This document shows positions 20,330 to 45,143 of a stretch of 64,000 bases of DNA, in pieces. Location: assembly GCF_035084215.1 (NCBI RefSeq), contig NW_027138407.1:310001-374000 (forward strand), written 5' to 3'. Under the pieces are notes generated by a model that was not told the origin of the DNA, did no database searches, and was given only the letters and a program-made list of their open reading frames with translations. Position numbers and translations under genes: made by a program. This stretch comes from Heptranchias perlo (taxonomy: Eukaryota). Every line of letters starts with the position of its first letter. Position 1 is the stretch's first letter.

Positions 20330-21535
20330 CTCTGCCTTTGATTGTCTCCCTCAACCCCACCTCCTCGGCGATTGACAGCTAGCTACGGCCCCGCCCCCTC
20401 GCCGATTGACAGCCAGCCCCGGCCCCGCCCACTCGCCGATTGACAGCCAGCCCCGGCCCCGCCCCCTCGCCGATTGACAGCCAGCCCCGGCCCCACCCCC
20501 TCGCCGATTGACAGCCAGCCCCGGCCCTCACCTTCAATGATTGATACCCCGCCCCTTCACTGATCAACCTATTGGCCCCACCCCCATTCAATGATTGACA
20601 GCTAGCCCCACTCCTCCCCCTCAATGATAGACAGCTAGCCCCACTCCTCCCCCTCAATGATAGACAGCTAGCCACGCCCTCCCCTCAATGATAGACAGCT
20701 AGCCCCATCCCTCAACTTCAATGATCGAGTTAGCCCCGCCCCTTCACTGATCGACACATTGGCCCCACCCCATGATTGACAGTTAGCCCCACCCCCACAT
20801 TACCAGTTAGCCCCACCCCTTCAGTGATTGACAGTTAGCCCCACCCCATTACCAGTTAGCCCCACCCCTTCAGTGATTGACAGTTAGCCCCACCCCCACG
20901 TTACTAGTTAGCCCCACCCCTTCAGTGATTGACAGTTAGCCCCACCCCCACATTACCAGTTAGCCCCACCCCCTCAGTGTTTGACAGTTAGCCCCACCCC
21001 ATTACCAGTTATCCCCACCCCCTCAGTGTTTGACAGTTAGCCCCACCCCATTACCAGTTAGCCCCACCCCTTCAGTGATTGACAGTTAGCCCCACCCCAT
21101 TACCAGTTATCCCCACCCCTTCAGTGATTGACAGTTAGCCCCACCCCATTACCAGTTATCCCCACCCCTTCAGTGATTGACAGTTAGCCCCACCCCATTA
21201 CCAGTTATCCCCACCCCTTCAGTGATTGACAGTTCGCCCCACCCCCACATTACCAGTTAGCCCCACCCCTTCAGTGATTGACAGTTCGCCCCACCCCATT
21301 ACCAGTTAGCCCCACCCCTTCAGTGATTGACAGTCCCTTCAGTGATTGACAGTTAGCCCCACCCCCTTCAGTGATTGACAGTTAGCCCCACCCCCACGTT
21401 AGCGAGTTAGCCCCGCCCCCTTCCGCGATTGACAGTTAGCCCCACCCCCCACGTTAACGAGTTAGCCCCGCCCCCTTCCGCGATTGACAGTTAGCCCCAC
21501 CCCCACGCTGCCGAGTTAGCCCCGCCCCCTTCAGT
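20330..21535. repeat. C-rich degenerate tandem repeat (about 30-55 bp units) at the 5' end of IPO4 intron 1, rich in TGATTGACAG and GCCCC(A/G)CCCC
   Basis: Repeated CCCTTCAGTGATTGACAGTTAGCCCCACCCCATTACCAGTTAG. Confidence 0.9.
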
Positions 21536-21732
21536 GATCGCCGGTTGGTCCCGCCCCCTCCGCGCGAGCGGCCGTTTGAAAGCGGTCGCGAGCCGCCATT
21601 TGACAGTTGGCTCCTCCCCGCCGGAGCAACCGTTCAGGGAGCGGGGCTTCGATCACCGTCAACCCGGGGGAGGGAGGGGGGAGAGCAGGAGCAGGAGCAG
21701 GCCTTCCCCCATCCCCATCCCCGGCAACTCAC

Positions 21733-21801
21733 CTGCTGGATCAGGGCGGTGTCGGGCTCCAGCAGATTGTTGAGGATCTTCTCCAGGATCTCCGCCATCA
21801 T
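21733..21801 (-). CDS. IPO4: Importin-4 coding exon 1 (MMAEILEKILNNLLEPDTALIQQ)
   Basis: ATG ATG start, |gtgagt donor, phase 0; resembles human LEQLLRELLLPDTERIRR; exons 1-6 splice into 196 in-frame codons. Confidence 0.92.
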
Positions 21802-22110
21802 CTCTCTCTCTCTCTCTCTCGAATCGCTTTGTTTCTCGTCCCCTCACGACGCTCCCCCGGCCCCGGCTTCTCCCCCTCCTCCTCCACCACCTCCTTCTCC
21901 CTCTCCCCCCACAACACCGCCCTCCTTCCCCGCCAGCGCTGACTCGGCGCCTCAGGCTCAACACGCCGGCAAAAAAAAAATGTGCTTTCCCGATCGGGCG
22001 AACGGACGGACGGACGGAACGCCAAGGAGGCGCCGGCTGACGCCCCGGTGAGGGATGGTGTCACCTCTGCGGGAGCGCTCCCCCTGCCGCCCGGAGGAGT
22101 CACCTGGGAT
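21802..22110 (-). promoter_or_regulatory. CpG-rich IPO4 5' UTR and promoter region
   Basis: High GC and CpG content immediately upstream of the ATG; (GA)n tract just before the start codon; TSS not determinable. Confidence 0.6.
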
Positions 22111-25100
22111 TTGGGAGGACTCGGGCAGCGCCTCCCCTGCGGTTGGGAGGACTCGGGCAGCGCCTCCCCTGCGGTTGGGAGGACTCGGGCAGCGCCCCCT
22201 GCGGTTGGGAGGACTCAGGCAGCGCCCCCTGCGATTGGGAGGACTCAGGCAGCGCCACCTGTGGTTGGGAGGACTCAGGCAGCGCCACCTGTGGTTGGGA
22301 GGACTCAGGCAGCGCCCCATGCGGTTGGGAGCACTCAGGCAGCGCCCCCTGCGGTTGGGAGCACTCAGGCAGCGCCCCCTGCGGTTGGGAGCACTCAGGC
22401 AGCGCCCCCTGCGGTTGGGAGGACTCAGGCAGCGCCCCCTGCGGTTGGGAGGACTCAGGCAGCGCACCCCTCCTGCTGCGGTTGAGAGGACTCCAGCAGT
22501 GACCCCAAGACTGCAGTTGGGAGGACTCAGGCAGCGCCCCCTGTGGATGGGAGGACTCAGCCAAACCCATCCCCTCACTGTGGTTGGGAGTACTCAGGCA
22601 GCACCCCCTGTGGTTGGGAGGACCCACTCAGCGCCCCCTGCGACTGGGAAGACTCCAGCCTCGCCCCGTGTGGTTGGGAGGACTCAGGCAGCGCCCCCTG
22701 CGGTTGGAAGGACTCAGGCAGCGCTGCCTTGCCGTTGGGAGGACTCAGGCAGCGAGCACCCTCTGCGGTTGGGAGGACTCAGGCAGCGCCCCCTGCGGTT
22801 GGGAGGACTCAGGCAGCGCCCTCTGCGGTTGGGAGGAGTCAGGCAACGCCCACACCTGCAGTTGGGAGGACTCAGGCAGCGCCCCCTGCGGTTGGGAGGA
22901 GTCAGGCAACGCCCACACCTGCGGTTGGGAGGACTCAGGCAGCGCCCCCTGCGGTTGGGAGGAGTCAGGCAACGCCCACACCTGCGGTTGGGAGGACTCA
23001 GGCAGCGCCCCCTGCGGTTGGGAGGAGTCAGGCAACGCCCACACCTGCGGTTGGGAGGACTCAGGCAGCGCCCCGTGCGGTTGGGAGGAGTCAGGCAACG
23101 CCCACACCTGCGGTTGGGAGGACTCAGGCAATGCCCCCTGCAGTTGGGAGGACTCAGGCAGCGCCCCCTGCGGTTGGGAGGACTCAGGCAGCGCCCCCTG
23201 CGGTTGGGAGGACTCAGGCAGCGCCCCCTGCTATTTTGGGAGGAGTCAGGCAACGCCCACACCTGCGGTTGGGAGGACTCAGGCAGTGCCCCCTGCAGTT
23301 GGGAGGACTCAGGCAGCGCCCCCTGCGGTTGGGAGGACTCAGGCAGCGCCCCCTGCGGTTGGGAGGACTCAGGCAGCGCCACCTGCGGTTGGGAGGACTC
23401 AGGCAGCGCCCCCTGCGGTTGGGAGGACTCAGGCAGCGCCCCCTGCGGTTGGGAGGACTCAGGCAACGCCCACACCTGCGGTTGGGAGGACTCAGGCAGC
23501 GCCCCCTGCGGTTGGGAGGACTCAGGCAGCGCCCCCTGCGGTTGGGAGGACTCAGGCGGCGCCCCCTGCGGTTGGGAGGACTCAGGCGGCGCCCCCTGCG
23601 GTTGGGAGGACTCAGGCGGCGCCCCCTGCGGTTGGGAGGACTCAGGCGGCGCCCCCTGCGGTTGGGAGGACTCAGGCGGCGCCCCCTGCGGTTGGGAGGA
23701 GTCAGGCAACGCCCACACCTGCGGTTGGGAGGACTCAGGCAGCGCCCCCTGCGGTTGGGAGGAGTCAGGCAACGCCCACACCTGCGGTTGGGAGGACTCA
23801 GGCAGTGCCCCCTGCGGTTGGGAGGACTCAGGCAGCGCCCCCTGCGGTTGGGAGGACTCAGGCAGCGCCCCCTGCGGTTGGGAGGACTCAGGCAGCGCCC
23901 CCTGCGGTTGGGAGGAGTCAGGCAACGCCCACACCTGCGGTTGGGAGGACTCAGGCAGTGCCCCCTGCGGTTGGGAGGACTCAGGCAGCGCCCCCTGCGG
24001 TTGGGAGGACTCAGGCAGCGCCACCTGCGGTTGGGAGGACTCAGGCAGCGCCCCCTGCGGTTGGGAGGACTCAGGCAGCGCCCCCTGCGGTTGGGAGGAG
24101 TCAGGCAACGCCCACACCTGCGGTTGGGAGGACTCAGGCAGCGCCCCCTGCGGTTGGGAGGACTCAGGCAGCGCCCCCTGCGGTTGGGAGGACTCAGGCA
24201 GCGCCCCCTGCGGTTGGAAGGACTCAGGCGGCGCCCCCTGCGGTTGGGAGGACTCAGGCGGCGCCCCCTGCGGTTGGGAGGACTCAGGCGGCGCCCCCTG
24301 CGGTTGGGAGGACTCAGGCAACGCCCACACCTGCGGTTGGGAGGACTCAGGCAACGCCCACACCTGCGGTTGGGAGGACTCAGGCAGCGCCCCCTGCGGT
24401 TGGGAGGACTCAGGCAGCGCCCCCTGCGGTTGGGAGGACTCAGGCAGCGCCCCCTGCGGTTGGGAGGACTCAGGCAGCGCCACCTGTGGTTGGGAGGACT
24501 CAGGCAGCGAGCACCCCCTGCGGTTGGGAGGACTCAGGCAGCGCCCCCTGCGGTTGGGAGGACTCAGGCAGCGCCCCCTGCGGTTGGGAGCACTCAGGCA
24601 GCGCCCCCTGCGGTTGGGAGCACTCAGGCAGCGCCCCCTGCGGTTGGGAGGACTCAGGCAGCGCCCCCTGCGGTTGGGAGGACTCAGGCAGCGCACCCCT
24701 CCTGCTGCGGTTGAGAGGACTCCAGCAGTGACCCCAAGACTGCAGTTGGGAGGACTCAGGCAGCGCCCCCTGTGGATGGGAGGACTCAGCCAAACCCATC
24801 CCCTCACTGTGGTTGTGAGTACTCAGGCAGCGCCTCCTGTGGTTGGGAGGACCCACTCAGCGCCCCCTGCGACTGGGAAGACTCCAGCCTCGCCCCGTGT
24901 GGTTGGGAGGACTCAGGCAGCGCCCCCTGCCGTTGGGAGGACTCAGGCAGCGCCACCTGTGGTTGGGAGGACTCAGGTAGCGTTTCACCCCACCCACCAC
25001 CCCTGCGGTCGGGAGGACTCGGGCAGCGCCCCCTGCGGTCAGGAGGACTCCATGCAGCGCCCCCCCCCCCCGTCAGTTGGGAGGACTCAGGCAGTGCCCC

Positions 25101-28100
25101 CTGCGGTTGGGAGGACTCAGGCAGCACCCCCTGTGGTTGGGAGGACTCAGGCAGCGCCCCCTGTGGTTGGGAGGACCCACTCAGCGCCCCCTGCGACTGG
25201 GAAGACTCCAGCTTCGCCCGATGTGGTTGGGAGGACTCATGATGGGAGGACTCAGGCAGTGCCCCCTGCGGTTTGGAGGATTCAGCCAGACCCACACCCC
25301 CACTGTGGTTGGGAGTACACAGGCAGCGCCCCCCAGCGGTCGGGAGGACTCGGACAGCGCCCCCTGCGGTCGGGGGGACTCGGGCAGCGCCCCCTGCGGT
25401 CGGGGGGACTCGGGCAGCGCCCCCTGCGGTCGGGAGGACTCGGGCAGCGCCCCCTGCGGTCGGGAGGACTCGGGCAGCGCCCCCTGCGGTCGGGAGGACT
25501 CGGGCAGCGCCCCCTGCGGTCGGGAGGACTCGGGCAGCGCCCCCTGCGGTCGGGAGGACTCGGGCAGCGCCCCCTGCGGTCGGGAGGACTCAGGCAGCGC
25601 CCCCTGCGGTTGGGAGGACACAGGCAGCACCCCCTGCGGTTGGGAGAACTCAGGCAGCGCCCCCTTTGTTTGGAAGGATCCAGGCAGCGCCCCCTGCGAC
25701 TGGGAAGACTCCAGTCCAGCCTCCTGCAGTTGGGAGGACTCAGACACCGACCCTCCCCCCGACCACGTTTGGGAGCTCAGGCAGCGCCCCCTGCGGTTGG
25801 CAGGACTCCAGCAGCGCCCCCTGTGGTTGGGAGGACTCAGGTAGCGTTTTCCCCCCACCCCCCACACCTTGCAGTTGGAAGGACTCCTGCTGCACCCCCT
25901 GTGGTTGGGAGGACTCAGGCAGCACCGCCTTGCAGTTGGAAGGACTCCTGCTGCGCCCCCTGCGGTTGGGAGGACTCCAGCAGCGCCCCCTGCGGTTGGG
26001 AGGACTCCAGCAGCGCCCCCTGCGGTTGGGAGGACTCCAGCAGCGCCCCCTGCGGTTGGGAGGACTCAGGCAGCGCCCTCTGCGGTTGGGAGGACTCAGG
26101 TAGCGTTTCCCCCCCGCCCCCCACCGCAGTTGGGAGCTCAGGCAGCGCCCCTGCCCCTGCATTGGGAGGACCCAGGCACCGACCCCATCCCCCCACTGCG
26201 GTTGAGAGGACTCCAGCAGTGACCCCAAGACTGCAGTTGGGAGGACTCAGGCAGCGCCCCCTGTGGATGGGAGGACTCAGCCAAACCCATCCCCTCACTG
26301 TGGTTGGGAGTACTCAGGCAGCACCCCCTGTGGTTGGGAGGACCCACTCAGCGCCCCCTGCGACTGGGAAGACTCCAGCCTCGCCCCGTGTGGTTGGGAG
26401 GACTCAGGCGGCGCCCCCTGCGGTTGGGAGGAGTCAGGCAACGCCCACACCTGCGGTTGGGAGGACTCAGGCAGCGCCCCCTGCGGTTGGGAGGAGTCAG
26501 GCAACGCCCACACCTGCGGTTGGGAGGACTCAGGCAGTGCCCCCTGCAGTTGGGAGGACTCAGGCAGCACCCCCTGCGGTTGGGAGGACTCAGGCAGCGC
26601 CCCCTGCGGTTGGGAGGACTCAGGCAGCGCCCCCTGCGGTTGGGAGGAGTCAGGCAACGCCCACACCTGCGGTTGGGAGGACTCAGGCAGTGCCCCCTGC
26701 AGTTGGGAGGACTCAGGCAGCGCCCCCTGCGGTTGGGAGGACTCAGGCAGCGCCCCCTGCGGTTGGGAGGACTCAGGCAGCGCCACCTGCGGTTGGGAGG
26801 ACTCAGGCAGCGCCCCCTGCGGTTGGGAGGACTCAGGCAGCGCCCCCTGCGGTTGGGAGGAGTCAGGCAACGCCCACACCTGCGGTTGGGAGGACTCAGG
26901 CAGCGCCCCCTGCGGTTGGGAGGACTCAGGCAGCGCCCCCTGCGGTTGGGAGGACTCAGGCAGCGCCCCCTGCGGTTGGGAGGACTCAGGCGGCGCCCCC
27001 TGCGGTTGGGAGGACTCAGGCGGCGCCCCCTGCGGTTGGGAGGACTCAGGCGGCGCCCCCTGCGGTTGGGAGGACTCAGGCAACGCCCACACCTGCGGTT
27101 GGGAGGACTCAGGCAGCGCCCCCTGCGGTTGGGAGGACTCAGGCTGCGCCCCCTGCGGTTGGGAGGACTCAGGCAGCGCCCCCTGCGGTTGTGAGGACTC
27201 AGGCAGCGCCACCTGTGGTTGGGAGGACTCAGGCAGCGCCACCTGTGGTTGGGAGGACTCAGGCAGCGCCACCTGCGGTTGGGAGGACTCAGGCAGCGAG
27301 CACCCCCTGCGGTTGGGAGGACTCAGGCAGCGCCCCCTGCGGTTGGGAGGACTCAGGCAGCGCCCCCTGCGGTTGGGAGCACTCAGGCAGCGCCCCCTGC
27401 GGTTGGGAGCACTCAGGCAGCGCCCCCTGCGGTTGGGAGGACTCAGGCAGCGCCCCCTGCGGTTGGGAGGACTCAGGCAGCGCACCCCTCCTGCTGCGGT
27501 TGAGAGGACTCCAGCAGTGACCCCAAGACTGCAGTTGGGAGGACTCAGGCAGCGCCCCCTGTGGATGGGAGGACTCAGCCAAACCCATCCCCTCACTGTG
27601 GTTGGGAGTACTCAGGCAGCGCCTCCTGTGGTTGGGAGGACCCACTCAGCGCCCCCTGCGACTGGGAAGACTCCAGCCTCGCCCCGTGTGGTTGGGAGGA
27701 CTCAGGCAGCGCCCCCTGCCGTTGGGAGGACTCAGGCAGCGCCACCTGTGGTTGGGAGGACTCAGGTAGCGTTTCACCCCACCCACCACCCCTGCGGTCG
27801 GGAGGACTCGGGCAGCGCCCCCTGCGGTCAGGAGGACTCCATGCAGCGCCCCCCCCCCGGCAGTTGGGAGGACTCAGGCAGTGCCCCCTGCGGTTGGGAG
27901 GACTCAGGCAGCACCCCCTGTGGTTGGGAGGACTCAGGCAGCGCCCCCTGTGGTTGGGAGGACCCACTCAGCGCCCCCTGCGACTGGGAAGACTCCAGCT
28001 TCGCCCGATGTGGTTGGGAGGACCCCCCCTGCGGTTTGGAGGACTCAGGCAGCGCCCCCTGCGGATGGGAGGATTCAGCCAGACCCACACCCCCACTGTG

Positions 28101-31100
28101 GTTGGGAGTACACAGGCAGCGCCCCCCAGCGGTCGGGAGGACTCGGACAGCGCCCCCTGCGGTCGGGGGGACTCGGGCAGCGCCCCCTGCGGTCGGGGGG
28201 ACTCGGGCAGCGCCCCCTGCGGTCGGGAGGACTCGGGCAGCGCCCCCTGCGGTCGGGAGGACTCGGGCAGCGCCCCCTGCGGTCGGGAGGACTCGGGCAG
28301 CGCCCCCTGCGTTTGGGAGGACTCAGGCAGCGCCCGCTGCGGTTGGGAGGACACAGGCAGCACCCCCTGCAGTTGGGAGAACTCAGGCAGCGCCCCCTTT
28401 GTTTGGAAGGATCCAGGCAGCGCCCCCTGCGACTGGGAAGACTCCAGTCCAGCCTCCTGCAGTTGGGAGGACTCAGACACCGACCCTCCCCCCGACCATG
28501 TTTGGGAGCTCAGGCAGCGCCCCCTGCGGTTGGCAGGACTCCAGCAGCGCCCCCTGTGGTTGGGAGGACTCAGGTAGCGTTTTCCCCCCACCCCCCACAC
28601 CTTGCAGTTGGAAGGACTCCTGCTGCACCCCCTGTGGTTGGGAGGACTCAGGCAGCACCGCCTTGCAGTTGGAAGGACTCCTGCTGCGCCCCCTGCGGTT
28701 GGGAGGACTCCAGCAGCGCCCCCTGCGGTTGGGAGGACTCCAGCAGCGCCCCCTGCGGTTGGGAGGACTCAGGCAGCGCCCTCTGCGGTTGGGAGGACTC
28801 AGGTAGCGTTTCCCCCCCGCCCCCCACCGCAGTTGGGAGCTCAGGCAGCGCCCCTGCCCCTGCATTGGGAGGACCCAGGCACCGACCCCATCCCCCCACT
28901 GCGGTTGAGAGGACTCCAGCAGTGACCCCAAGACTGCAGTTGGGAGGACTCAGGCAGCGCCCCCTGTGGATGGGAGGACTCAGCCAAATCCATCCCCTCA
29001 CTGTGGTTGGGAGTACTCAGGCAGCACCCCCTGTGGTTGGGAGGACCCACTCAGCGCCCCCTGCGACTGGGAAGACTCCAGCCTCGCCCCGTGTGGTTGG
29101 GAGGACTCAGGCAGCGCCCCCTGCGGTTGGGAGGACTCAGGCAGCGCTGCCTTGCCGTTGGGAGGACTCAGGCAGCGAGCACCCACTGCGGTTGGGAGGA
29201 CTCAGGCAGCGCCCCCTGCGGTTGGGAGGACTCAGGCAGCGCCCCCTGCGGTTGGGAGGAGTCAGGCAACGCCCACACCTGCAGTTGGGAGGACTCAGGC
29301 AGCGCCCCCTGCGGTTGGGAGGAGTCAGGCAACGCCCACACCTGCGGTTGGGAGGACTCAGGCAGCGCCCCCTGCGGTTGGGAGGAGTCAGGCAACGCCC
29401 ACACCTGCGGTTGGGAGGACTCAGGCAGCGCCCCCTGCGGTTGGGAGGAGTCAGGCAACGCCCACACCTGCGGTTGGGAGGACTCAGGCAATGCCCCCTG
29501 CAGTTGGGAGGACTCAGGCAGCGCCCCCTGCGGTTGGGAGGACTCAGGCAGCGCCCCCTGCGGTTGGGAGGACTCAGGCAGCGCCCCCTGCGGTTGGGAG
29601 GAGTCAGGCAACGCCCACACCTGCGGTTGGGAGGACTCAGGCAGTGCCCCCTGCAGTTGGGAGGACTCAGGCAGCGCCCCCTGCGGTTGGGAGGACTCAG
29701 GCAGCGCCCCCTGCGGTTGGGAGGACTCAGGCAGCGCCCCCTGCGGTTGGGAGGACTCAGGCAGCGCCACCTGCGGTTGGGAGGACTCAGGCAGCGCCCC
29801 CTGCGGTTGGGAGGATTCAGGCAGCGCCCCCTGCGGTTGGGAGGACTCAGGCAACGCCCACACCTGCGGTTGGGAGGACTCAGGCAGCGCCCCCTGCGGT
29901 TGGGAGGACTCAGGCAGCGCCCCCTGCGGTTGGGAGGACTCAGGCGGCGCCCCCTGCGGTTGGGAGGACTCAGGCGGCGCCCCCTGCGGTTGGGAGGACT
30001 CAGGCGGCGCCCCCTGCGGTTGGGAGGACTCAGGCGGCGCCCCCTGCGGTTGGGAGGACTCAGGCGGCGCCCCCTGCGGTTGGGAGGAGTCAGGCAACGC
30101 CCACACCTGCGGTTGGGAGGACTCAGGCAGCGCCCCCTGCGGTTGGGAGGAGTCAGGCAACGCCCACACCTGCGGTTGGGAGGACTCAGGCAGTGCCCCC
30201 TGCAGTTGGGAGGACTCAGGCAGCGCCCCCTGCGGTTGGGAGGACTCAGGCAGCGCCCCCTGCGGTTGGGAGGACTCAGGCAGCGCCCCCTGCGGTTGGG
30301 AGGAGTCAGGCAACGCCCACACCTGCGGTTGGGAGGACTCAGGCAGTGCCCCCTGCGGTTGGGAGGACTCAGGCGGCGCCCCCTGCGGTTGGGAGGACTC
30401 AGGCGGCGCCCCCTGCGGTTGGGAGGACTCAGGCGGCGCCCCCTGCGGTTGGGAGGACTCAGGCAACGCCCACACCTGCGGTTGGGAGGACTCAGGCAGC
30501 GCCCCCTGCGGTTGGGAGGACTCAGGCAGCGCCCCCTGCGGTTGGGAGGACTCAGGCAGCGCCCCCTGCGGTCGGGAGGACTCAGGCAGCGCCCCCTGCG
30601 GTCGTGAGGACTCAGGCAGCGCCACCTGTGGTTGGGAGGACTCAGGCAGCGCCACCTGTGGTTGGGAGGACTCAGGCAGCGCCACCTGCGGTTGGGAGGA
30701 CTCAGGCAGCGAGCACCCCCTGCGGTTGGGAGGACTCAGGCAGCGCCCCCTGCGGTTGGGAGGACTCAGGCAGCGCCCCATGCGGTTGGGAGCACTCAGG
30801 CAGCGCCCCCTGCGGTTGGGAGCACTCAGGCAGCGCCCCCTGCGGTTGGGAGGACTCAGGCAGCGCCCCCTGCGGTTGGGAGGACTCAGGCAGCGCACCC
30901 CTCCTGCTGCGGTTGAGAGGACTCCAGCAGTGACCCCAAGACTGCAGTTGGGAGGACTCAGGCAGCGCCCCCTGTGGATGGGAGGACTCAGCCAAACCCA
31001 TCCCCTCACTGTGGTTGGGAGTACTCAGGCAGCGCCTCCTGTGGTTGGGAGGACCCACTCAGCGCCCCCTGCGACTGGGAAGACTCCAGCCTCGCCCCGT

Positions 31101-32975
31101 GTGGTTGGGAGGACTCAGGCAGCGCCCCCTGCCGTTGGGAGGACTCAGGCAGCGCCACCTGTGGTTGGGAGGACTCAGGTAGCGTTTCACCCCACCCACC
31201 ACCCCTGCGGTCGGGAGGACTCGGGCAGCGCCCCCTGCGGTCAGGAGGACTCCATGCAGCGCCCCCCCCCCCCGGCAGTTGGGAGGACTCAGGCAGTGCC
31301 CCCTGCAGTTGGGAGGACTCAGGCAGCACCCCCTGTGGTTGGGAGGACTCAGGCAGCGCCCCCTGTGGTTGGGAGGACCCACTCAGCGCCCCCTGCGACT
31401 GGGAAGTCTCCAGCTTCGCCCGATGTGGTTGGGAGGACTCATGATGGGAGGACTCAGGCAGTGCCCCCTGCGGTTTGGAGGACTCAGGCAGCGCCCCCTG
31501 CGGATGGGAGGATTCAGCCAGGCCCACACCCCCACTGTGGTTGGGAGTACACAGGCAGCGCCCCCCAGCGGTCGGGAGGACTCGGACAGCGCCCCCTGCG
31601 GTCGGGGGGACTCGGGCAGCGCCCCCTGCGGTCGGGGGGACTCGGGCAGCGCCCCCTGCGGTCGGGAGGACTCGGGCAGCGCCCCCTGCGGTCGGGAGGA
31701 CTCGGGCAGCGCCCCCTGCGGTCGGGAGGACTCGGGCAGCGCCCCCTGCGGTCGGGAGGACTCGGGCAGCGCCCCCTGCGTTTGGGAGGACTCGGGCAGC
31801 GCCCCCTGCGGTTGGGAGGACACAGGCAGCGCCCCCTGCGGTTGGGAGAACTCAGGCAGCGCCCCCTTTGTTTGGAAGGATCCAGGCAGCGCCCCCTGCG
31901 ACTGGGAAGACTCCAGTCCAGCCTCCTGCAGTTGGGAGGACTCAGACACCGACCCTCCCCCCGACCACGTTTGGGAGCTCAGGCAGCGCCCCCTGCGGTT
32001 GGCAGGACTCCAGCAGCGCCCCCTGTGGTTGGGAGGACTCAGGTAGCGTTTTCCCCCCACCCCCCACACCTTGCAGTTGGAAGGACTCCTGCTGCACCCC
32101 CTGTGGTTGGGAGGACTCAGGCAGCACCGCCTTGCAGTTGGAAGGACTCCTGCTGCGCCCCCTGCGGTTGGGAGGACTCCAGCAGCGCCCCCTGCGGTTG
32201 GGAGGACTCCAGCAGCGCCCCCTGCGGTTGGGAGGACTCAGGCAGCGCCCTCTGCGGTTGGGAGGACTCAGGTAGCGTTTCCCCCCCGCCCCCCACCGCA
32301 GTTGGGAGCTCAGGCAGCGCCCCTGCCCCTGCATTGGGAGGACCCAGGCACCGACCCCATCCCCCCACTGCGGTTGTGAGCTCAGGCAGTGCCCCCTTCA
32401 GTTGGGAGTACTCGGGCAGCGCCGACTGTGGTTGGGAGGACTCAGGCAGCGCCGCCTTGCTGTAGGGAGGACTCAGGCAGCGCCGACTGTGGTTGGGAGT
32501 ACTCGGGCAGCGCCGACTGTGGTTGGGAGGACTCAGGCAGCGCCGACTGTGGTTGGGAGGACTCAGGCAGCGCCGACTGTGGTTGGGAGGACTCAGGCAG
32601 CGCCCCCTGCGGTTGGGAGGACTCCAGCAGCGCCCCCTGCGGTTGGGAGGACTACAGCAGAGCCCCCTGTGGTTGGGAGGACCGAGGCAGCGCCAGGTGC
32701 AGTTGGGAGGACTCAGGCAGCGCCCCCTGCGGTTGGGAGGACTCAGTCAGCGTCCCCCCATGGACGGGAGGTCCGAGGCAGCGCCCCCCTGTAATTGGGA
32801 GGACCGAGGCAGCGCCCCCTGTAATTGGGAGGACCGAGGCAGCGCCCCCCTGTAATTGGGAGGACCGAGGCAGCGCCCCCTGTAATTGGGAGGACCGAGG
32901 CAGCGCCCCCTGTAATTGGGAGGACCGAGGCAGCGCCCCCTGTAATTGGGAGGACCGAGGCAGCGCCCCCTGCAG
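22110..32975. repeat. ~10.8 kb GC-rich minisatellite, 30-bp unit GCGGTTGGGAGGACTCAGGCAGCGCCCCCT, with higher-order blocks
   Basis: About 350 tandem units; 32-bp variant units; diagnostic variant blocks recur. Confidence 0.98.
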
Positions 32976-35143: not shown

Positions 35144-37176
35144 GGGCTCGATTTTAGGAGGGAGGTGGGTTGGCAGTGGGGGGTCGACTGTGGCTAACCC
35201 GCCCAGTGAATTCGGGGAGCTCCACACGCGATCGCAGCCTAATTGAAGCCACTCACCTTGGCTTCCGGGTTTCGCGCTGGAAAGCTGCGCAGCGGGCGGA
35301 CGGCGCAGCCGCATCGTGGGCTGTCAGCTGGAGGAGCCCTATTTAAAGGGGCAGTCCTCCACTGACTGATGCTGCAGAAAGGAGCCAAAATTACAGCATG
35401 GAGCAGCCCAGGGGGAAGGCTGCTCCCAGGTTTAATGATGCCTCACTCCAGGTCCTACTGGATGGGGTGAGGAGGAGGGGGAGGAGGACAGAGATCTTCC
35501 CCCCGGCGGACAGGAGGAAGTGGCCTGCCTCTGCAACCATGAAGGCCTGGCTCGAGGTGGCAGAGGAGGTCACCAGCACCACCAACATATCGCCCACCTG
35601 CATACAGTGCAGGAGGCGCTCCAATGACCTCAGTAGGTCAGCCAAAGTGAGAACACTTACTCATTCCCCTACACTCCGTCTGCCACATCACCGCCCCCAC
35701 CCCACATCTCCTTCTGCACTGCCAACACTACTCTATCACATCACTCCTCACACCCACTCAAAGCTCATCCTCATCTCACCTGCACCTACTCACCTCGCCA
35801 GTACTCACCCCGCCACTACCACTCAACCCAATCCTCATACAATCTCATGGCTCCGTCTCATACTCACCCTCTCGTGCATCTCTTTCACGGTCAGCCTCAC
35901 TCAACCTGCCACTACCTGTGCTGCAGCCACAGGGCATGCATCACATATGTGCAGTAGGCAGCGTAAGGCAAATGTGTCGTGAGCATGAAGGGGATGCACA
36001 AGGGTGTTTGAGGGTTTGTCATGGTTTTTACTTGTATTTGATTTCTGATCAACTCACATAACATATTATATTGGCACCACTACTGCCACGTCTTCGCAAA
36101 TCTTGTCTGGTTTGTGCAATTATGCCCTTTCCTGAGGATCAGCATGAAGACCCACACCTGATGACACCCATTGTGTCACTGCAGAGTGGGTGTAGGTGTA
36201 TTTGCAGGGCTCTTTTGTGCAGACGACTGAGAGACGTTGGCGATGTTCCCATTGGCACCCTGGAAGGATGCGGAGGAGAAGTTGTTGAGGGCAGTGGTGA
36301 CTTTGACAGCGACAGGTAAGAAGATGGTGCTCGGGCCAGCCGGGAGCAGCTCGGCATGAAGGAGGCTGCAGATGTCCACGACTACATGTCGAGTGACTCT
36401 GAGCCTCCGTGTGCACTGCTGCTCAGAGAGGTCCAGGAAGCTGAGCCTCGGTCTGTAGACCCTGTGGCGAGGGTAGTGCCCTCTGCGACGCATCTCTCTC
36501 TGCGGTTGCCCTCCCTCTTGCTGTGCAGGTGGATGTGTTACAGCACCGTGTTGTGGAGCTCCACGTGTCAGAGGTGGACGGCGTGGCCGGCGAGGCTGGT
36601 GATGCTGTTCGCCCTCCGAGGAGGTCACGACTGCAGCTACGGCGGCCCCCATCCGGAAGATGTACATCTGAGGGGGTCCGCAAGGTAGGTACATGTCTCT
36701 GGACACCGGGGTAAGTGTGCAAATTGGTGAATTTGATTGTTAGGAGGAGAGTGGTGGAGGCCAAACTTTGTCCAATGTGACAGAGTGACCTCCTGCAATG
36801 AGTGATGGTCTCCCCCTCCCACCTGTCAAATGGACCTTTGCAGCTGCCACAGGCTGGTGGCTGCAACACGTCCATTTGAACTGGGAGTGTTTCCCCCAGT
36901 ACAGGAAACAGTCTCAGTTGATCTGAAAATCCCACCCCTCCTAAAATATCAGGTCAATCAGGTCTGTAAACGACCTGAAATACCTGGTTAATTACTTCAA
37001 GTGGCAGCGGGAGTCCCACATGAGGGGGCTGCGCGTGCAGGTCAGCGCGTCACTGGGGAACCCGGGAGTGGGCGGGTTGGAGCCAGGCTCACCACCCGCC
37101 CTGGGAATCCCCGATTTTCACAGCCCCTCACCCCCCGCCAGGAACGCACCTGATCGGGAGTGCGAAAATCGAGCAC
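35144..37176. mobile_element. Internally deleted PIF/Harbinger DNA transposon with convergent Myb/SANT-like gene (+, from 35398) and transposase 5' part (-, about 36176-36660)
   Basis: TIRs GGGCTCGATTTT (35144) and AAAATCGAGCAC (37165-37176); RF..ASLQVLLDGV..AWLEVAEEV..QCRRRSNDL; YRPRLSFLDLSEQQCTRRLR..LPVAVKVTTALNNFSSASFQ. Confidence 0.85.
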
Positions 37177-39767: not shown

Positions 39768-39773
39768 TTTATT
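39768..39773 (-). terminator. Polyadenylation signal AATAAA of the Ig light-chain-like gene
   Basis: About 100 nt downstream of the TGA at 39873-39875. Confidence 0.75.
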
Positions 39774-39872: not shown

Positions 39873-40216
39873 TCACTGCAGCTCGCAGGTCTCTCGGTCG
39901 ACGGTGTGGACGATGGGCTCCTGGCTGGACTCGTGCCACACCTGGCAGGAGTAGAGGGAGTGGGAGCCCCAGCGGCTGGCCGGCAGGGTCAGGTAGCTCC
40001 CCCAGCTGTAGCTGCCGTTGTCCTCCAGCGCGGCTTTCCCCGGGCCGGCGCCCTCCGTCTCCTCGCCGTCCAGCGTCCAGCGGGCGCGCACGTAGCCCGG
40101 GTAGAAGCCGCTGGCCAGGCAACTCAGGGTGACGGCGGCGTCTGCGGCACGGGCGCGGGCCAGCTCCTCTTTCGACGGCGGGTAGAGGTGGACGGTGGGC
40201 GCCGAGAGCTGGCGGC
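39873..40216 (-). CDS. Ig light-chain-like gene exon 3: C1-set constant domain
   Basis: cccgcag| acceptor; (S)RQLSAPTVHLYPPSKEELARARAADAAVTLSCLASGFYPGYVRARWTLDGEE..DNGSYSWGSYLTLPASRWGSHSLYSCQVWHESSQEPIVHTVDRETCELQ*; canonical Cys/Trp/Cys, PPS.EEL, GFYP, YSCQV.H, C-terminal Cys, no transmembrane segment. Confidence 0.95.
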
Positions 40217-40339
40217 CTGCGGGTTGGAGGAAGAGGAGGCGTTAGTCGGGCCCCCTCGCGGCAAAGATACAAAAACAATGACCACTCCACCCTGCCAGAC
40301 TAATTAATGAGCCCGATCATCCTCCCGCACTAATCATCG

Positions 40340-41780
40340 AGGAGAAATACTTATTAACGACTTCGATGAAGGCATAGAAAGTCTCATATCTGAGTTTGCC
40401 GATGACACAAAGATTGGTGGCATTGTAAGCAGTGGAGACGGAAACATAAAATTACAAAGGGATATTGATAGATTAGGTGAATGGGCAAAACTGTGGCAAA
40501 TGGAATTCACTGTAGACAAATGTGAGGTCATCCACTTTGGATCAAAAAAGGATAGAACAGGGTACTTTCTAAATGGTAAAAAGTTAAAAACAGTGGATGT
40601 CCAAAGGGACTTAGCGGTTCAGGTACATAGATCATTGAAGTGTCATGAACAGGTGCAGAAAATAATCAATAAGGCGAATGGAATGCTGACCAGAGTACAA
40701 GGGGGCAGAAGTTATGCTGCAGCTATACAAAACCCTGGTTAGACCGCACCTGGAGTACTGTGAGCAGTTCTGGGCACCGCACCTTCGGAAGGACATATCG
40801 GCCTTGGAGGGAGTGCAGCGTAGGTTTACTAGAATGATACCCGGACTTCAAGGGTTAAGTTACGAGGAGAGATTACACAAATTGGGGTTGTATTCTCCAG
40901 AGTTTCGAAGGTTAAGGGGTGATCTGATCGAAGTTTATAAGATATTAAGGGGAATCATATCCCTTAATACCTTTGGTTGGCAAAAAGCTATCTATCTCAG
41001 ATTTAAATTTAGCAAAATTTAACCTACGCTGCACTCCCTCCAAGGCCAGTATGTCCTTCCGAAGGTGCGGTGCCCAGAACTGCTCACAGTACTCCAGGTG
41101 CGGTCTAACCAGGGTTTTGTATAGCTGCAGCATAACTTCTGCCCCCTTGTACTCTCGTCCTCTCGATATAAAGGCCAGCATTCCATTAGCCTTATTGATT
41201 ATTTTCTGCACCTGTTCATGACACTTCAATGATCTATGTACCTGAACCCCTAAGTCCCTTTGGACATCCACTGTTTTTAACTTTTTACCATTTAGAAAGT
41301 ACCCTGTTCTATCCTTTTTTGGTCCAAAGTGGATGACCTCACATTTGTCTACATTGACTTCCATTTGCCACAGTTTTGCCCATTCACCTAATCTATCAAT
41401 ATCGCTTTGTAATTTTATGTTTTCATCTACAGATAGGGTGGATAGAGAGAAACTATTTCCGCTGGTTGGGGATTCTAGGAGAAGGGGGCACAGTCTAAAA
41501 ATTAGAGCCAGACCTTTCAGGAGTGAGATTAGAAAACATTTCTGCACACAAAAGGGTGGTAGAAGTTTGGAACTCTCTTCCGCAAACAGCAATTGATACT
41601 AGCACAATTGCTAAATTTTAAATCTGAGATAGATAGCTTTTTGCCAACCAAAGGCATTAAGGGATATGGGCCAAAGGCAGGTATATGGAGTTAGATCACA
41701 GATCAGCCACGATCTTATCAAATGGCGGAGCGGGCTCGAGGGGCCGAATGGCCTACTCCTGTTCCTACGTTCCTATGTTC
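40340..41780. mobile_element. CR1 LINE 3' copy (+) containing an inverted piece of the same family (-, about 40955-41430)
   Basis: Near-identical RT peptides on both strands (VDKCEVIHFG.KKDRTGYFLNGKKLKTVDVQRDL). Confidence 0.88.
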
Positions 41781-42713
41781 CTAAAAGCGTGAAGACACAA
41801 CAACAACCTACTGAGGCAGACAAGTTGACATTCCGATCGTAGAAACATAGAAAATAGGAGCAGGAGTAGGCCATTCGGCCCTTCGAGCCTGCTCCGCCAT
41901 TCAATATGATCATAGAATCATAGAAGTTTACAACATGGAAACAGGCCCTTTGGCCCAACATGTCCATGTCGCCCAGTTTATACCACTAAGCTAGTCCCAA
42001 TTGCCTGCACTTGGCCCATGGCTAATCCTCTATCTCAATACCATATTCCCGCTCTCTCCCCATACGCTTTGATGCCTTTTGTGTCTGGAATTCCATCCAG
42101 CTCCTTCTTTGCTTGACAATTTCTCCTAATTTTTCTGTATCTTGAAATCGTGCCCTTATGCCTTTGATTTGCCCAGCACTGCGAAACAATCTGTTTTACC
42201 TTGAATGCTGCTTTATCATTTCGAACACCGCTTATCGAATTTCGCCCAGGTTTGAGAGAATACGGCTCTCGTTGCTTTCGCGACCTGGGAATTGCTCGAT
42301 GGAAACAAAACCAAGGTCCGTCTGGTTCCCCTTCTCCCACCCTGGTCGCCGTGTGATACGATGATAATGGAGTTGTTGACTAATCAGGGCCATCGATCTC
42401 CATCAATTAGTCTCCAACAGACCCAGACATGAGGTGAGGAAAACCCCCAGTGGTGGAGAGCTTTGGGGAGCCATTGGTCCAAAGTCACCTGTTCCTCCCG
42501 AGCCCTGTTCCACTTCCCGCACCTCATGTCCCCAAATTACTCGTAGACTCTCTCCCCAAATGTTATTTTCCGAACTGAAGCGATCTCATTTTTGCACTCG
42601 AACAAATCGACTCTCTCCGCTCCCACTGCCTCCCCGGGGAGCCTGTTCCACAGATCGACCACTGTGTCTAAGCAAGTCTCTCTCCATATAAGTTTGTAGA
42701 CGGGGTTACTCAC

Positions 42714-43067
42714 TGGGTATAAGTAGGTGGATGCCGTTCCCAAAGTGGACTTGGTTGTTGTAATACATGGCGCAGTAGTAAGTCCCCATGTCCGCCTTGG
42801 CCACGCTGTTCACCGTCAGGAGGTAGGTGTTGTTCACACTATCCCAGGAAGGCTGGTACCGCTCGGTGATGCCCGAGCTCCGATCGATGCTCCCACTCGC
42901 CCAGTGGGTGAGCACCCACTCCAGCCTCCGCTCGCTCCGCTCCCGGTACCAGAAGCCGCCGTAGTCTCGGACGTTCAGGTTCTGCACCCGGCAGCTCAGG
43001 GTCCCGGCCCCTCCCGCGGCCACGGAGGCCGACGGCGGCTGTCTGAGGACGGGGTTCGGCGCGGCAC
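42714..43067 (-). CDS. Ig light-chain-like gene exon 2: germline-joined VJ domain
   Basis: ctccag| acceptor, |gtgagt donor, phase 1/1; (G)AAPNPVLRQPPSASVAAGGAGTLSCRVQNLNVRDYGGFWYRERSERRLEWVLTHWASGSIDRSSGITERYQPSWDSVNNTYLLTVNSVAKADMGTYYCAMYYNNQVHFGNGIHLLIP; Cys23, Trp41, D-x-x-x-YYC and J motif FGxG in one exon. Confidence 0.95.
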
Positions 43068-43124
43068 CTGGAGGAGGAGAGGTGTGGGTGAAGAGCAAGA
43101 CGTTACCCACAGCTCCGTACCGAA

Positions 43125-43835
43125 CGGGAAGGAGAAAGAAACAAAAGATAGTAAGAAAGAAAGGGAGAACGAGAGAGAGAGAAAAAGGAGGAGATGGAAC
43201 GAGAGAAAGAGAGTGAGTAAGTACAAAAGAGAGAGAAAGAAAAAGGAGGAGATGGAACGAGAGAAAGAGAGTGAGTGCAAAAGAGAGAGAGAAAGAAAAA
43301 GATGGAATGAGAGAAAGAGAGTGAGTGCGAGAGAGAGAGAAAGAAAAAGGCGATGGAATGAGAGAAAGAGAGTGAGTGCAAAAGAGAGAGAGAAAGAGAA
43401 AGAAGGAAAGAGACAGAGCGAGAGAAAGAGTGAGAGTGAGAAAGAGAGAGAGAAAAAGAGAAAGGCAGAGAGAGAAAAAGAGAGCGAAAAAGAATAAGTG
43501 AGAAAGAATGAGAGAGAGAAGGAAAAAGAAGGAAAGATAAAGAAGGAAAGAGAGAGAAAGAGAGTGAGTAAGTGAGAAAGAGAGAGAAAGACGGAGAGAA
43601 AAAGAAAGAAAAAGAGAGCAAAAAAGTAAGTGAGAAAGAAAGAGTAAGTGAGAAAGAGAGAGAAAGAAAAAGGAGAAAGAAGAGACAGACAGAGCGAAAG
43701 AGAGTGAGTGAGAAAGAGAGAGAGAAAGAAAGACAGAGAAAAAAAAAGAAGGAAAGATAAAGGAGAAAGAAGGAAAGAGAGAGAGTGAGTAAGTGAGAAA
43801 GAGAGAGAAAAAGAGAGAGAAAGAAAGACAAAATC
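43125..43835. repeat. ~700 bp polypurine (GA/GAAA) low-complexity tract in the leader-V intron
   Basis: Almost only A and G on the plus strand. Confidence 0.95.
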
Positions 43836-44084
43836 AAATAAAATTTGACACGAGCCTCATAGAGAGATCTCGGGCCGGAATTTGCTGTCAAAATAACGGT
43901 GAGGCTGATTACACTCGCTGTTATTTTTGCGTAAATGCTACAGCAACTTCGGGCGAGGAGCAGCTGCGCGGCTCGACGCGGATATCCAGAAGTTGCTGTG
44001 CGAGATGTTTCCCCTCCGCCATTAGCTCTGCCAAGGCAGCATCTCGCCCTCAGCCTCCCCGTTCCTTTTGTGGTGAAGTTGTTG

Positions 44085-44440
44085 TGTTTGGAGGGGCGCA
44101 GAGATCTCGGAGGGTTGTAGGGCTGGAGGAGTTACAGAGATAGGGAGAGGGGGGCGAGGGCCATGGAGGGATTTGAAAACAAGAATTTTATAATCAAGGC
44201 ATTCCCGGACCGGGAGCCAATGTAGGGTCAGCGAGCACAGGGGGTGATGGGTGAACGGGACTCGGTGCGAGTTAGGATACGGGGGGGCAGCAGGAGTTTT
44301 GGATGAGCTCAAGTTTACAGAGGGTGGGAGATGGGAGGCCGGCCAGCAGAGCATTGGAATAGTCCAGTCTGGAGGTAACAAAGGCAATGAACTGAAGCAG
44401 GGGCGGAGACGGGCGATGTTACGGAGGTGGAGGTAGGCGG
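44085..44440 (-). mobile_element. L2-clade LINE fragment
   Basis: Homologous to 10.6-10.9 kb; HLRNIARLRP. Confidence 0.75.
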
Positions 44441-44544
44441 AATGGGGTCGGAAAGAGAGACAGAAAAAGAGAGAAAGAAAGAAGATAGAGAAGAACAGAA
44501 AGAAAGGAAGAGAGAGGCAGCCAGAAAGAAAAGATAAGGAAGGA

Positions 44545-44990
44545 AAGACTTGCATTTATACGGTACCTTTCACCACCTCAGGATGTCCCAAAGCGCTTTA
44601 CAGCCAAAGAACTACTTTTTTTGAAGTGTAGCCACTGTAAGGAACGCAGAAGCCAATTTGCGCACAGCAAGATCCCGCAAACAGCAATGAGATAAATGAC
44701 CAGATCATCTGGTTTTTAGGCATTGGTTGAAGGATAAATATTGGCCCCCAGGGAGATCTCCCCTGATCTTCTTCCATTAGCGTCCGTGGGATCTTTTACA
44801 GCCACCTGAGACGGGGCAGACGGGGCCCTCGGTTTAACGTCTCATCCCCAAAGACAGTGGAGCGCTCCCTCAGTACTGGCAACCGGGGAGCGTCGGCCCT
44901 GGCTTTTTGGGAAGTCGAGTCTCCGGAGCGAGCGTGGGGGCTCGAACCCACGACCTTCCGACTCGGAGTGGGGGGAGAGAGAGCAGGTGC
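44545..44990 (-). mobile_element. tRNA-derived DeuSINE (SacSINE1-like)
   Basis: Deu-domain-like sequence (revcomp GGGATCTTGCTGTGCGCAAATTGGCT..GGCTGTAAAGCGCTTTGGGACATCC..ATAAATGCAAGTC) and B-box GGTTCGAGCC. Confidence 0.75.
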
Positions 44991-45097
44991 TACCCCTGAC
45001 CATGCCACGGCTGACACCCGCGCTGCCTCGATCAGAGCCCCTGCCTCTACATCATTCAACAGACCGGCCATAAAACAGACAGCGAGCACCCACTGAC

Positions 45098-45143
45098 CTG
45101 TGAGACACAGCAGCAAAATCAAGCTTCTCTGCACCGCCTCCAT
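45098..45143 (-). CDS. Ig light-chain-like gene exon 1: leader peptide MEAVQRSLILLLCLT(G)
   Basis: 46-nt phase-1 exon, the classic Ig split-leader arrangement; |gtcagt donor; hydrophobic core; in frame with the VJ exon. Confidence 0.9.

What the first reader, a model, noticed from the sequence alone, without database searches (positions are those of the whole stretch)
22110..32975. About 350 co-oriented CTCF-like motifs forming a 10.8 kb block between a housekeeping gene and an Ig gene
Seen: the minus strand of the unit reads ACCGCAGGGGGCGCTG (variant ACCACAGGTGGCGCTG), repeated head-to-tail from the IPO4 promoter edge. Known: the CTCF core consensus is CCASYAGRKGGCRS, which the unit matches at 12 of 14 positions, and clustered CTCF sites bound mammalian Igh at its 3' end. 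Inference: a repeat-built insulator or loop anchor separating IPO4 from a lymphocyte-specific gene. The units are CpG-rich, so binding could be methylation-switchable.
Basis: partly seen in the sequence, partly recalled or inferred. Interest (0 to 1): 0.7.

Follow-up and report, generated by a model that had tools for sequence, protein, structure and literature searches.

The report
Giant shark repeat, weak CTCF motif
A 10.9-kb block of about 350 short repeats sits at the start of a shark housekeeping gene and carries weak, same-direction look-alikes of the docking site of the genome-folding protein CTCF; they are predicted to point away from the neighbouring antibody-like gene, so the block is likely an ordinary expanded repeat and at most an incidental barrier.

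Summary
The array is real: a 30-bp minisatellite, 353.9 copies (22111-32973), unique to this locus, 313 bp upstream of the IPO4 start codon and 6.8 kb 3' of a spliced, germline-joined VJ-C1 light-chain-like gene. "350 CTCF motifs" overstates it: 206 sites pass p<1e-4 with a recalled matrix, the main unit scores 12.4 of 26.1 bits, and none has fewer than two consensus mismatches (core positions 1 and 3). The motifs face IPO4, opposite to the Igh 3' anchor. TCR-alpha C lies 292 kb away, behind two PARP14-like genes, with its own candidate CTCF sites. Only 9 of 228 cores carry the methylation-sensitive CpG. The motif is not significantly protected from mutation, and a score this good among 97 local arrays has about 15% chance. 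The genome holds several better CTCF minisatellites (median 15.5-21.4 bits), and the scan has noted this class before in this and other shark genomes. Best reading: a weak promoter-edge CTCF-like site, tandemly amplified, probably methylated, at most an incidental barrier. Binding is untested. New member of a known kind (DXPas34-type).

The parts
22111..32973 (-). 30-bp minisatellite, about 354 units; the minus strand carries a degenerate CTCF core (positions 1 and 3 off consensus) in about 60% of units
   Evidence: TRF; unit split; recalled-matrix scan; mismatch counts; locus-unique
24440..32420 (.). three copies of a higher-order block inside the array (marker units at 24676, 27465, 30878; offsets 2789, 3413, 6202), 96-97% identical over 1.2-1.6 kb
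22071..22101 (-). diverged single unit at the promoter edge (9.6 bits, contains a GGGCGG box); inferred seed or oldest relic of the array
   Evidence: sequence; score; printed; seed role is inference
21732..21845 (-). IPO4 exon 1 (ATG at 21798); RNA contigs reach 21841-21845 and splice at 21732
   Evidence: 3 of 3 RNA-type runs, one sample; identity from later exons
21540..22110 (.). CpG-island-like IPO4 promoter region, CpG observed/expected 0.84
39873..40215 (-). C1-set exon of the light-chain-like gene; AATAAA at 39768-39773
   Evidence: Pfam; sequence; splice joint
42713..43070 (-). single VJ exon, joined in the germline (no recombination signal found by the scan)
45098..45143 (-). leader exon of the light-chain-like gene
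   Evidence: ORF; protein P0001; loose end

Best explanation
This is a locus-specific 30-bp minisatellite with a three-fold higher-order duplication that likely grew by tandem amplification of a weak CTCF-like site at the edge of the IPO4 promoter, is probably methylated over most of its length, and would bind CTCF only weakly, so any barrier it makes is likely incidental and is predicted to face IPO4. Shown: the repeat structure, uniqueness, motif scores, strand, flanking genes and the abundance of other giant repeats nearby. Inferred: origin from the promoter-edge unit, expansion by slippage and unequal exchange, germline methylation, low occupancy (each 30-bp unit lacks the C1 and A3 contacts and a good upstream module), and stalling of cohesin arriving from the IPO4 side where CTCF does bind.
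For: Giant repeats are normal here: 97 arrays cover 231 kb of 864 kb, including 41.8, 29.5, 15.9 and 11.0 kb blocks. Main unit 12.4 bits against 14-22 bits for the single sites listed around the TCR-alpha/delta locus on the same contig. No unit restores C1, and none restores A3 while keeping C2. Changes are not significantly rarer at 8 high-information positions than at 11 spacer positions (14 vs 20 alleles; Mann-Whitney p=0.56; 65 of 88 unit types, 290 of 338 copies). CpG positions show 41 transitions to 6 transversions, other positions 55 to 74 (unit types, not independent events). A diverged unit lies at the promoter edge. CTCF ancestry is plausible: arrays with the same two-mismatch pattern give 961 triple matches against 179, 94 and 292 for three control patterns, and a similar array sits at another promoter, pointing into its gene. 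Upstream module matches 5 of 10 at best.
Against: The array is the top scorer of 97 local arrays. 16 sites score 13.4-15.5 bits and every kb holds 9-20 sites of 12 bits or more except the last (7), so summed occupancy could be large. At non-CpG core positions fewer copies are changed than in the spacer (58 over 6 positions vs 203 over 11; not tested on its own). At allele level the CpG excess is weak (4 of 4 vs 12 of 18 positions). At array level the excess of this motif class over the rotated control is only 10 vs 5 on contigs C1-C4, so CTCF ancestry is about even odds. The matrix is recalled from memory and additive matrices mispredict weak cores (PMC10287918, section 16). No binding, methylation, Hi-C or cross-species data.
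Confidence: 0.5

Rival explanations
1. Chance look-alike: a GC-rich minisatellite with a five-G run that resembles the motif but was never a CTCF site and is not bound.
For: Expected 0.157 arrays at this score among 97, seen 1; at 8.4 bits expected 0.80, seen 2. Only 22 hits against a 70% GC background. Control patterns also form arrays: 94 matches in 18 arrays for the rotated pattern. Two informative core positions are off in every intact unit.
Against: The motif class is 3- to 10-fold over controls by matches. The non-core matrix positions 17-19 (CTG) also fit. The promoter-edge unit shares a 16-base word with one other place in the genome, a promoter CTCF-like array (noticed after the fact).
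Confidence: 0.25
2. Working, selected insulator: about 200 weak sites add up to a strong cohesin barrier and enhancer blocker that keeps an enhancer of the light-chain-like gene or the antigen-receptor region off the IPO4 promoter.
For: It lies between the two genes, and IPO4 is spliced in 3 of 3 RNA-type runs while the Ig gene joint is seen in 2 of 3. Tandem sites insulate in either orientation (PMC7087399, passages); persistent sites are often tandem (PMC9958374, passages). Cartilaginous fish use the CTCF orientation code (PMC10115646, passages). Slight lean to fewer changes at non-CpG core positions.
Against: Motifs face IPO4; no site of 11 bits or more lies between the array and C240:382 kb on either strand. 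No improvement toward consensus across 338 units. Persistent boundary sites are consensus-like and often carry the upstream motif, which these do not. No enhancer identified; no conservation shown.
Confidence: 0.2
3. Germline-type occupancy: the staggered weak sites are bound mainly by CTCFL/BORIS (or another zinc-finger protein) in testis, marking or repressing the repeat, as at human VNTRs.
For: CTCF and BORIS co-bind simple tandem repeats in human cells (PMC5007689, passages); sharks have testis-biased CTCFL that lacks the cohesin-binding YDF motif (PMC7471279, passages).
Against: No direct evidence here; the CpG decay pattern points to germline methylation.
Confidence: 0.05

Closest known systems
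DXPas34 minisatellite beside the mouse Tsix promoter (PMC3149622, passages)
   Same: 30-34-bp CpG-containing monomers in tandem, CTCF motif in the monomers, next to a promoter, lineage-restricted and variable in motif number
   Different: Here 10.9 kb and about 354 units with a 3-kb higher-order repeat; motif degenerate in every unit; binding and function untested; no X-inactivation context
Human simple tandem repeats (VNTRs) and TAR1 bound by CTCF and BORIS (PMC5007689, passages)
   Same: Uncharacterised GC-rich VNTRs forming staggered clusters of CTCF-type sites
   Different: Those are ChIP-validated; this one is predicted only, and weak
Mouse Igh 3'CBE super-anchor (PMC7826415, passages; orientation from PMC5859386 section 20)
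   Same: Many co-oriented motifs 3' of an Ig constant exon, before a non-immune neighbour
   Different: Ten bound elements with a deletion phenotype, with 3' sites mostly facing the V genes; here a minisatellite of weak motifs facing away from the Ig gene, which does not rearrange
Other CTCF minisatellites of this genome (G000:C23:50.00M, C3:53.72M, C10:82.34M, C20:52.06M, C1:49.96M, C4:69.86M)
   Same: Tandem, one-strand CTCF motifs with unrelated spacers; the C4 array is also promoter-proximal and points into its gene
   Different: Five have exact consensus cores (median 15.5-21.4 bits); this array is weaker, and longer than the four whose ends were seen (C3 and C23 run past the fetched stretch)

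Membership tests
CTCF-motif minisatellite (DXPas34 type) | Tandem array of about 30-34-bp monomers | tested here: met
   period 30, 353.9 copies
CTCF-motif minisatellite (DXPas34 type) | Monomers carry a CTCF motif | tested here: inconclusive
   206 of about 354 units pass p<1e-4 (uniform background), 22 against 70% GC; none closer than two mismatches
CTCF-motif minisatellite (DXPas34 type) | Next to a promoter | tested here: met
   313 bp from the IPO4 ATG; RNA contigs end at 21841-21845
CTCF-motif minisatellite (DXPas34 type) | CTCF bound in vivo or in vitro | not testable with these tools
   no ChIP or EMSA data
Igh 3'CBE-type super-anchor | Cluster of co-oriented motifs directly 3' of the receptor constant gene | tested here: inconclusive
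   6.8 kb 3' of the light-chain-like gene, but 292 kb and two PARP14-like genes from TCR-alpha C
Igh 3'CBE-type super-anchor | Motifs face the receptor locus | tested here: not met
   206 of 206 hits on the minus strand, facing IPO4; convention recalled, checked on the contig's TCR locus (vs PMC5859386)
Igh 3'CBE-type super-anchor | Bounds a rearranging or class-switching locus | tested here: not met
   VJ is one germline exon with no recombination signal found
Igh 3'CBE-type super-anchor | Bound by CTCF/cohesin; deletion lets the enhancer act downstream | not testable with these tools
   needs ChIP, Hi-C, deletion
High-affinity two-part CTCF site | Consensus core plus upstream module (TGCAATACCC-type) | tested here: not met
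   core off at positions 1 and 3; best upstream match 5 of 10, overlapping the previous unit's core
Methylation-switched CTCF insulator (H19 type) | CpG at core positions 2-3 | tested here: not met
   9 of 228 cores; the unit's CpGs are at 3-4 and 12-13; only 2-3 matters in vitro
Methylation-switched CTCF insulator (H19 type) | Differential methylation between alleles or tissues | not testable with these tools
   no methylation data

The most novel reading that the evidence does not exclude
Sharks build tunable cohesin barriers out of CTCF minisatellites (up to about a quarter of this genome's exact consensus sites sit in tandem pairs), and this array is the weak-site, high-copy extreme: a length-variable insulator whose strength is set by copy number, walling a housekeeping promoter off from a conserved non-rearranging light-chain-like gene at the edge of the antigen-receptor complex.
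Probability: 0.12. Interest if true: 0.65.

Novelty: new member of a known kind. Interest (0 to 1): 0.27.

Why it matters
As it stands it is one more CTCF-like minisatellite, unusual mainly for size. It would matter if bound: 200 weak sites at 30-bp spacing are a natural test of whether number can replace affinity in stopping cohesin, and the genome offers matched strong arrays for comparison. The neighbouring single-copy germline VJ-C1 gene, conserved in five sharks, may interest immunologists more than the array.

Tried and rejected
Dispersed repeat family: rejected, 186 of 186 genome matches lie in the array; the promoter edge has only three short low-complexity hits elsewhere. 3' boundary of TCR-alpha: rejected on distance, intervening genes and the locus's own candidate sites at C240:622,248, 767,865, 773,303. 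DAD1 as neighbour, as in mammals (recalled): not on this contig. UrIg/UrIg2 identity for the Ig gene: does not fit, those have three or more C domains (PMC12227049, passages and section 6). G-quadruplex or switch-region character: no four-run G3 motif on either strand, 10 AGCT in 10.9 kb. Reversed-pattern controls carry an obligatory CpG and undercount, so rotated controls were added: exact consensus 4543 vs 822 rotated, 180 reversed, 123 reversed-rotated. Cross-species test: no relatives held; run search listed one organism, one sample, no RNA holder on record; no look-alike earlier windows. No Ig-gene cover in run X5 is not used as evidence of silence. One 159-base contig of depth 8.7 in X5 covers 22025-22108; may be DNA. 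One search used a wrong frame and found nothing. The primary structure paper on methylation (PMC5542067) was not held. My notebook remark that V-region sites are mostly minus was too strong: 15 minus, 13 plus at 14 bits or more; only the exact-consensus ones are 4 of 4 minus. Paper searches (listings only) showed no title or abstract start on shark CTCF minisatellites; most subscription papers and bioRxiv supplements are not searched.
Full report
Observation. Tandem Repeats Finder gives one array at 22111-32973, period 30, 353.9 copies, 77% matches. My split gives 338 units of 88 types, the commonest exact unit 71 times. The array has a second level: a composite block recurs three times at offsets 2789, 3413 and 6202 with 96-97% identity. 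A genome search with up to two mismatches finds 186 matches, the number found inside the array, so the unit is unique to this locus.

Motif quality. With the JASPAR MA0139.1 matrix recalled from memory (no call supplied it; column sums 908-913), 206 sites pass p<1e-4 on a uniform background, all on the minus strand, 16 pass 1e-5 and none 1e-6; at 44% GC the counts are 208, 172 and 3, at 70% GC 22, 0 and 0. The main unit scores 12.4 of 26.1 bits. Against CCASYAGRKGGCRS no position has fewer than two mismatches, 175 have two, 61 three. The defects are core positions 1 and 3; no unit restores C1, and none restores A3 while keeping C2. The best upstream-module match is 5 of 10 and overlaps the previous core (motif from PMC10287918 passages). 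The matrix behaves sensibly in this genome: the exact consensus occurs 4543 times against 822, 180 and 123 for control patterns.

Chance. 92 of 20,000 shuffles of the unit reach 12.3 bits. Among the 97 arrays in the 864 kb of contig examined (of 1.715 Mb) this one ranks first, but 0.157 would reach that score by shuffling. Giant repeats are common here: 41.8, 29.5, 15.9 and 11.0 kb. Genome-wide, tandem pairs of the exact consensus number 1082 against 22 reversed, and at least five unrelated arrays have median scores of 15.5-21.4 bits. Triples with the same two defects number 961 (about 75 from this array by my own count) against 179, 94 and 292 for controls; by arrays, the first 100 listed matches fall in 10 arrays on C1-C4, against 5 for the rotated control. 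CTCF ancestry for this array is therefore about even odds, helped by a diverged unit at the promoter edge (22071-22101, 9.6 bits) and by a similar promoter array on C4.

Selection and methylation. Using 65 of 88 unit types (290 of 338 copies; longer or poorly aligned units dropped), 8 high-information positions carry 14 alleles and 11 spacer positions 20 (p=0.56 on copies changed); non-CpG core positions lean toward fewer changes (58 over 6 vs 203 over 11). CpG positions show 41 transitions to 6 transversions against 55 to 74 elsewhere, counted by types that share descent; by alleles 4 of 4 against 12 of 18. This suggests germline methylation but does not show it. The unit's CpGs lie at core 3-4 and 12-13. 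Only methylation at 2-3 blocks binding in vitro (PMC10287918 passages; review PMC6222495 passages), and 9 of 228 cores have that CpG.

Neighbours. Left: IPO4, ATG at 21798, exon 1 spliced in 3 of 3 RNA-type runs of one sample. Right, 6.8 kb away: a leader, one germline VJ exon and one C1 exon, spliced in 2 of 3 runs. It is single-copy (next V at most 40%, next C at most 43% identical; 150 candidates scored each), labelled lambda-1-like in Heptranchias perlo at 100% identity, with relatives in four other sharks (V 57-66%). The contig carries the TCR-alpha/delta locus on the minus strand: J-alpha 643.8-767 kb, J-delta and D-delta 793-805 kb, V beyond, and a C exon at 635.1-635.5 kb that I take as C-alpha by position. 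That is 292 kb from the array, with two PARP14-like genes between. This fits the shark antigen-receptor complex of PMC12227049 (abstract, passages, section 6 and part 1 of 2 of table S1 read).

Orientation. By the usual convention (recalled), a motif read on the minus strand points to lower coordinates. The contig's TCR locus agrees with mouse under it: the exact site before J-alpha faces V and 4 of 4 exact V-region sites face J-C (PMC5859386 section 20). The array thus faces IPO4, away from the light-chain-like gene and TCR, whereas Igh 3' sites mostly face V. No site of 11 bits or more lies between the array and 382 kb to pair with it as a divergent boundary. Insulation can be orientation-independent (PMC7087399 passages), so this lowers the super-anchor claim, not all barrier function. 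Skate TAD borders follow the orientation code (PMC10115646 passages).

Mechanism. Shown: structure, uniqueness, scores, strand, neighbours. Inferred: a weak CTCF-like, GC-box-containing site at the IPO4 promoter edge was caught in tandem amplification, then duplicated in 3-kb blocks; most of it is probably methylated and weakly occupied; bound units would stall cohesin coming from the IPO4 side. I give this 0.5, pure look-alike 0.25, selected insulator 0.2, germline CTCFL target 0.05.

Comparison and verdict. It works, if at all, like DXPas34 (PMC3149622 passages) and the CTCF-bound human VNTRs (PMC5007689 passages). It is not an Igh 3'CBE-type anchor (PMC7826415 passages) nor an H19-type switch. 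Earlier scan notes describe the same class in this and other shark genomes (unchecked AI notes that supplied three paper leads and the promoter-site wording). New member of a known kind; interest 0.27.

Noticed in passing
window 39873-45143 (-): Single-copy, germline-joined two-domain VJ-C1 gene, spliced, conserved in five sharks (whole protein 54-67% to this one), about 290 kb 3' of TCR-alpha C. Its V is only about 38% identical to the nearest light-chain V genes of the genome. It may be the IgL sigma or sigma-prime gene listed near psmb5 in table S1 of PMC12227049 (orthology untested), or a separate non-rearranging lineage.
   Followed up: partly
G000:C240:622-974 kb: TCR-alpha/delta translocon with mouse-like candidate CTCF sites: V-facing sites at 622,248 (3' of C-alpha), 767,865 and 773,303 (upstream of J-alpha), and many 14-22-bit sites among V segments.
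   Followed up: partly
G000:C23:50.00M, C3:53.72M, C10:82.34M, C20:52.06M, C1:49.96M (L088-L092): Unrelated minisatellites made of exact CTCF consensus cores (at least 215, at least 138, 52, 85 and 17 copies; median 15.5-21.4 bits). Better insulator candidates than this array.
   Followed up: partly
L094:3677-3977 (G000:C4:69.86M) and window 22083-22098: A nine-copy 32-bp CTCF-like array at the promoter of a gene whose first exon looks like riboflavin kinase (recalled, untested) shares a 16-base word with the IPO4 promoter-edge unit; these are the only two places in the genome with that word.
   Followed up: partly
G000:C3:73.38M: DAD1 is on another contig, not 3' of TCR-alpha as in mammals (recalled); PARP14-like genes lie there instead.
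   Followed up: no
G000:C240:529286-571063 and 128118-157654: Very large minisatellites: 31 bp x 1350 (41.8 kb) and 32 bp x 900 (29.5 kb).
   Followed up: no
window 40047: RNA contigs of X6 and X7 read A where the assembly and the DNA run read G in the C1 exon; allele or editing not resolved.
   Followed up: no
window 20355-21538: IPO4 intron 1 begins with a graded series of 34-, 33- and 49-bp repeats, so the promoter is flanked by minisatellites on both sides.
   Followed up: no
window 35347-36740: Open frames that look like a Harbinger-type transposon remnant (recalled resemblance) between the array and the Ig gene.
   Followed up: no
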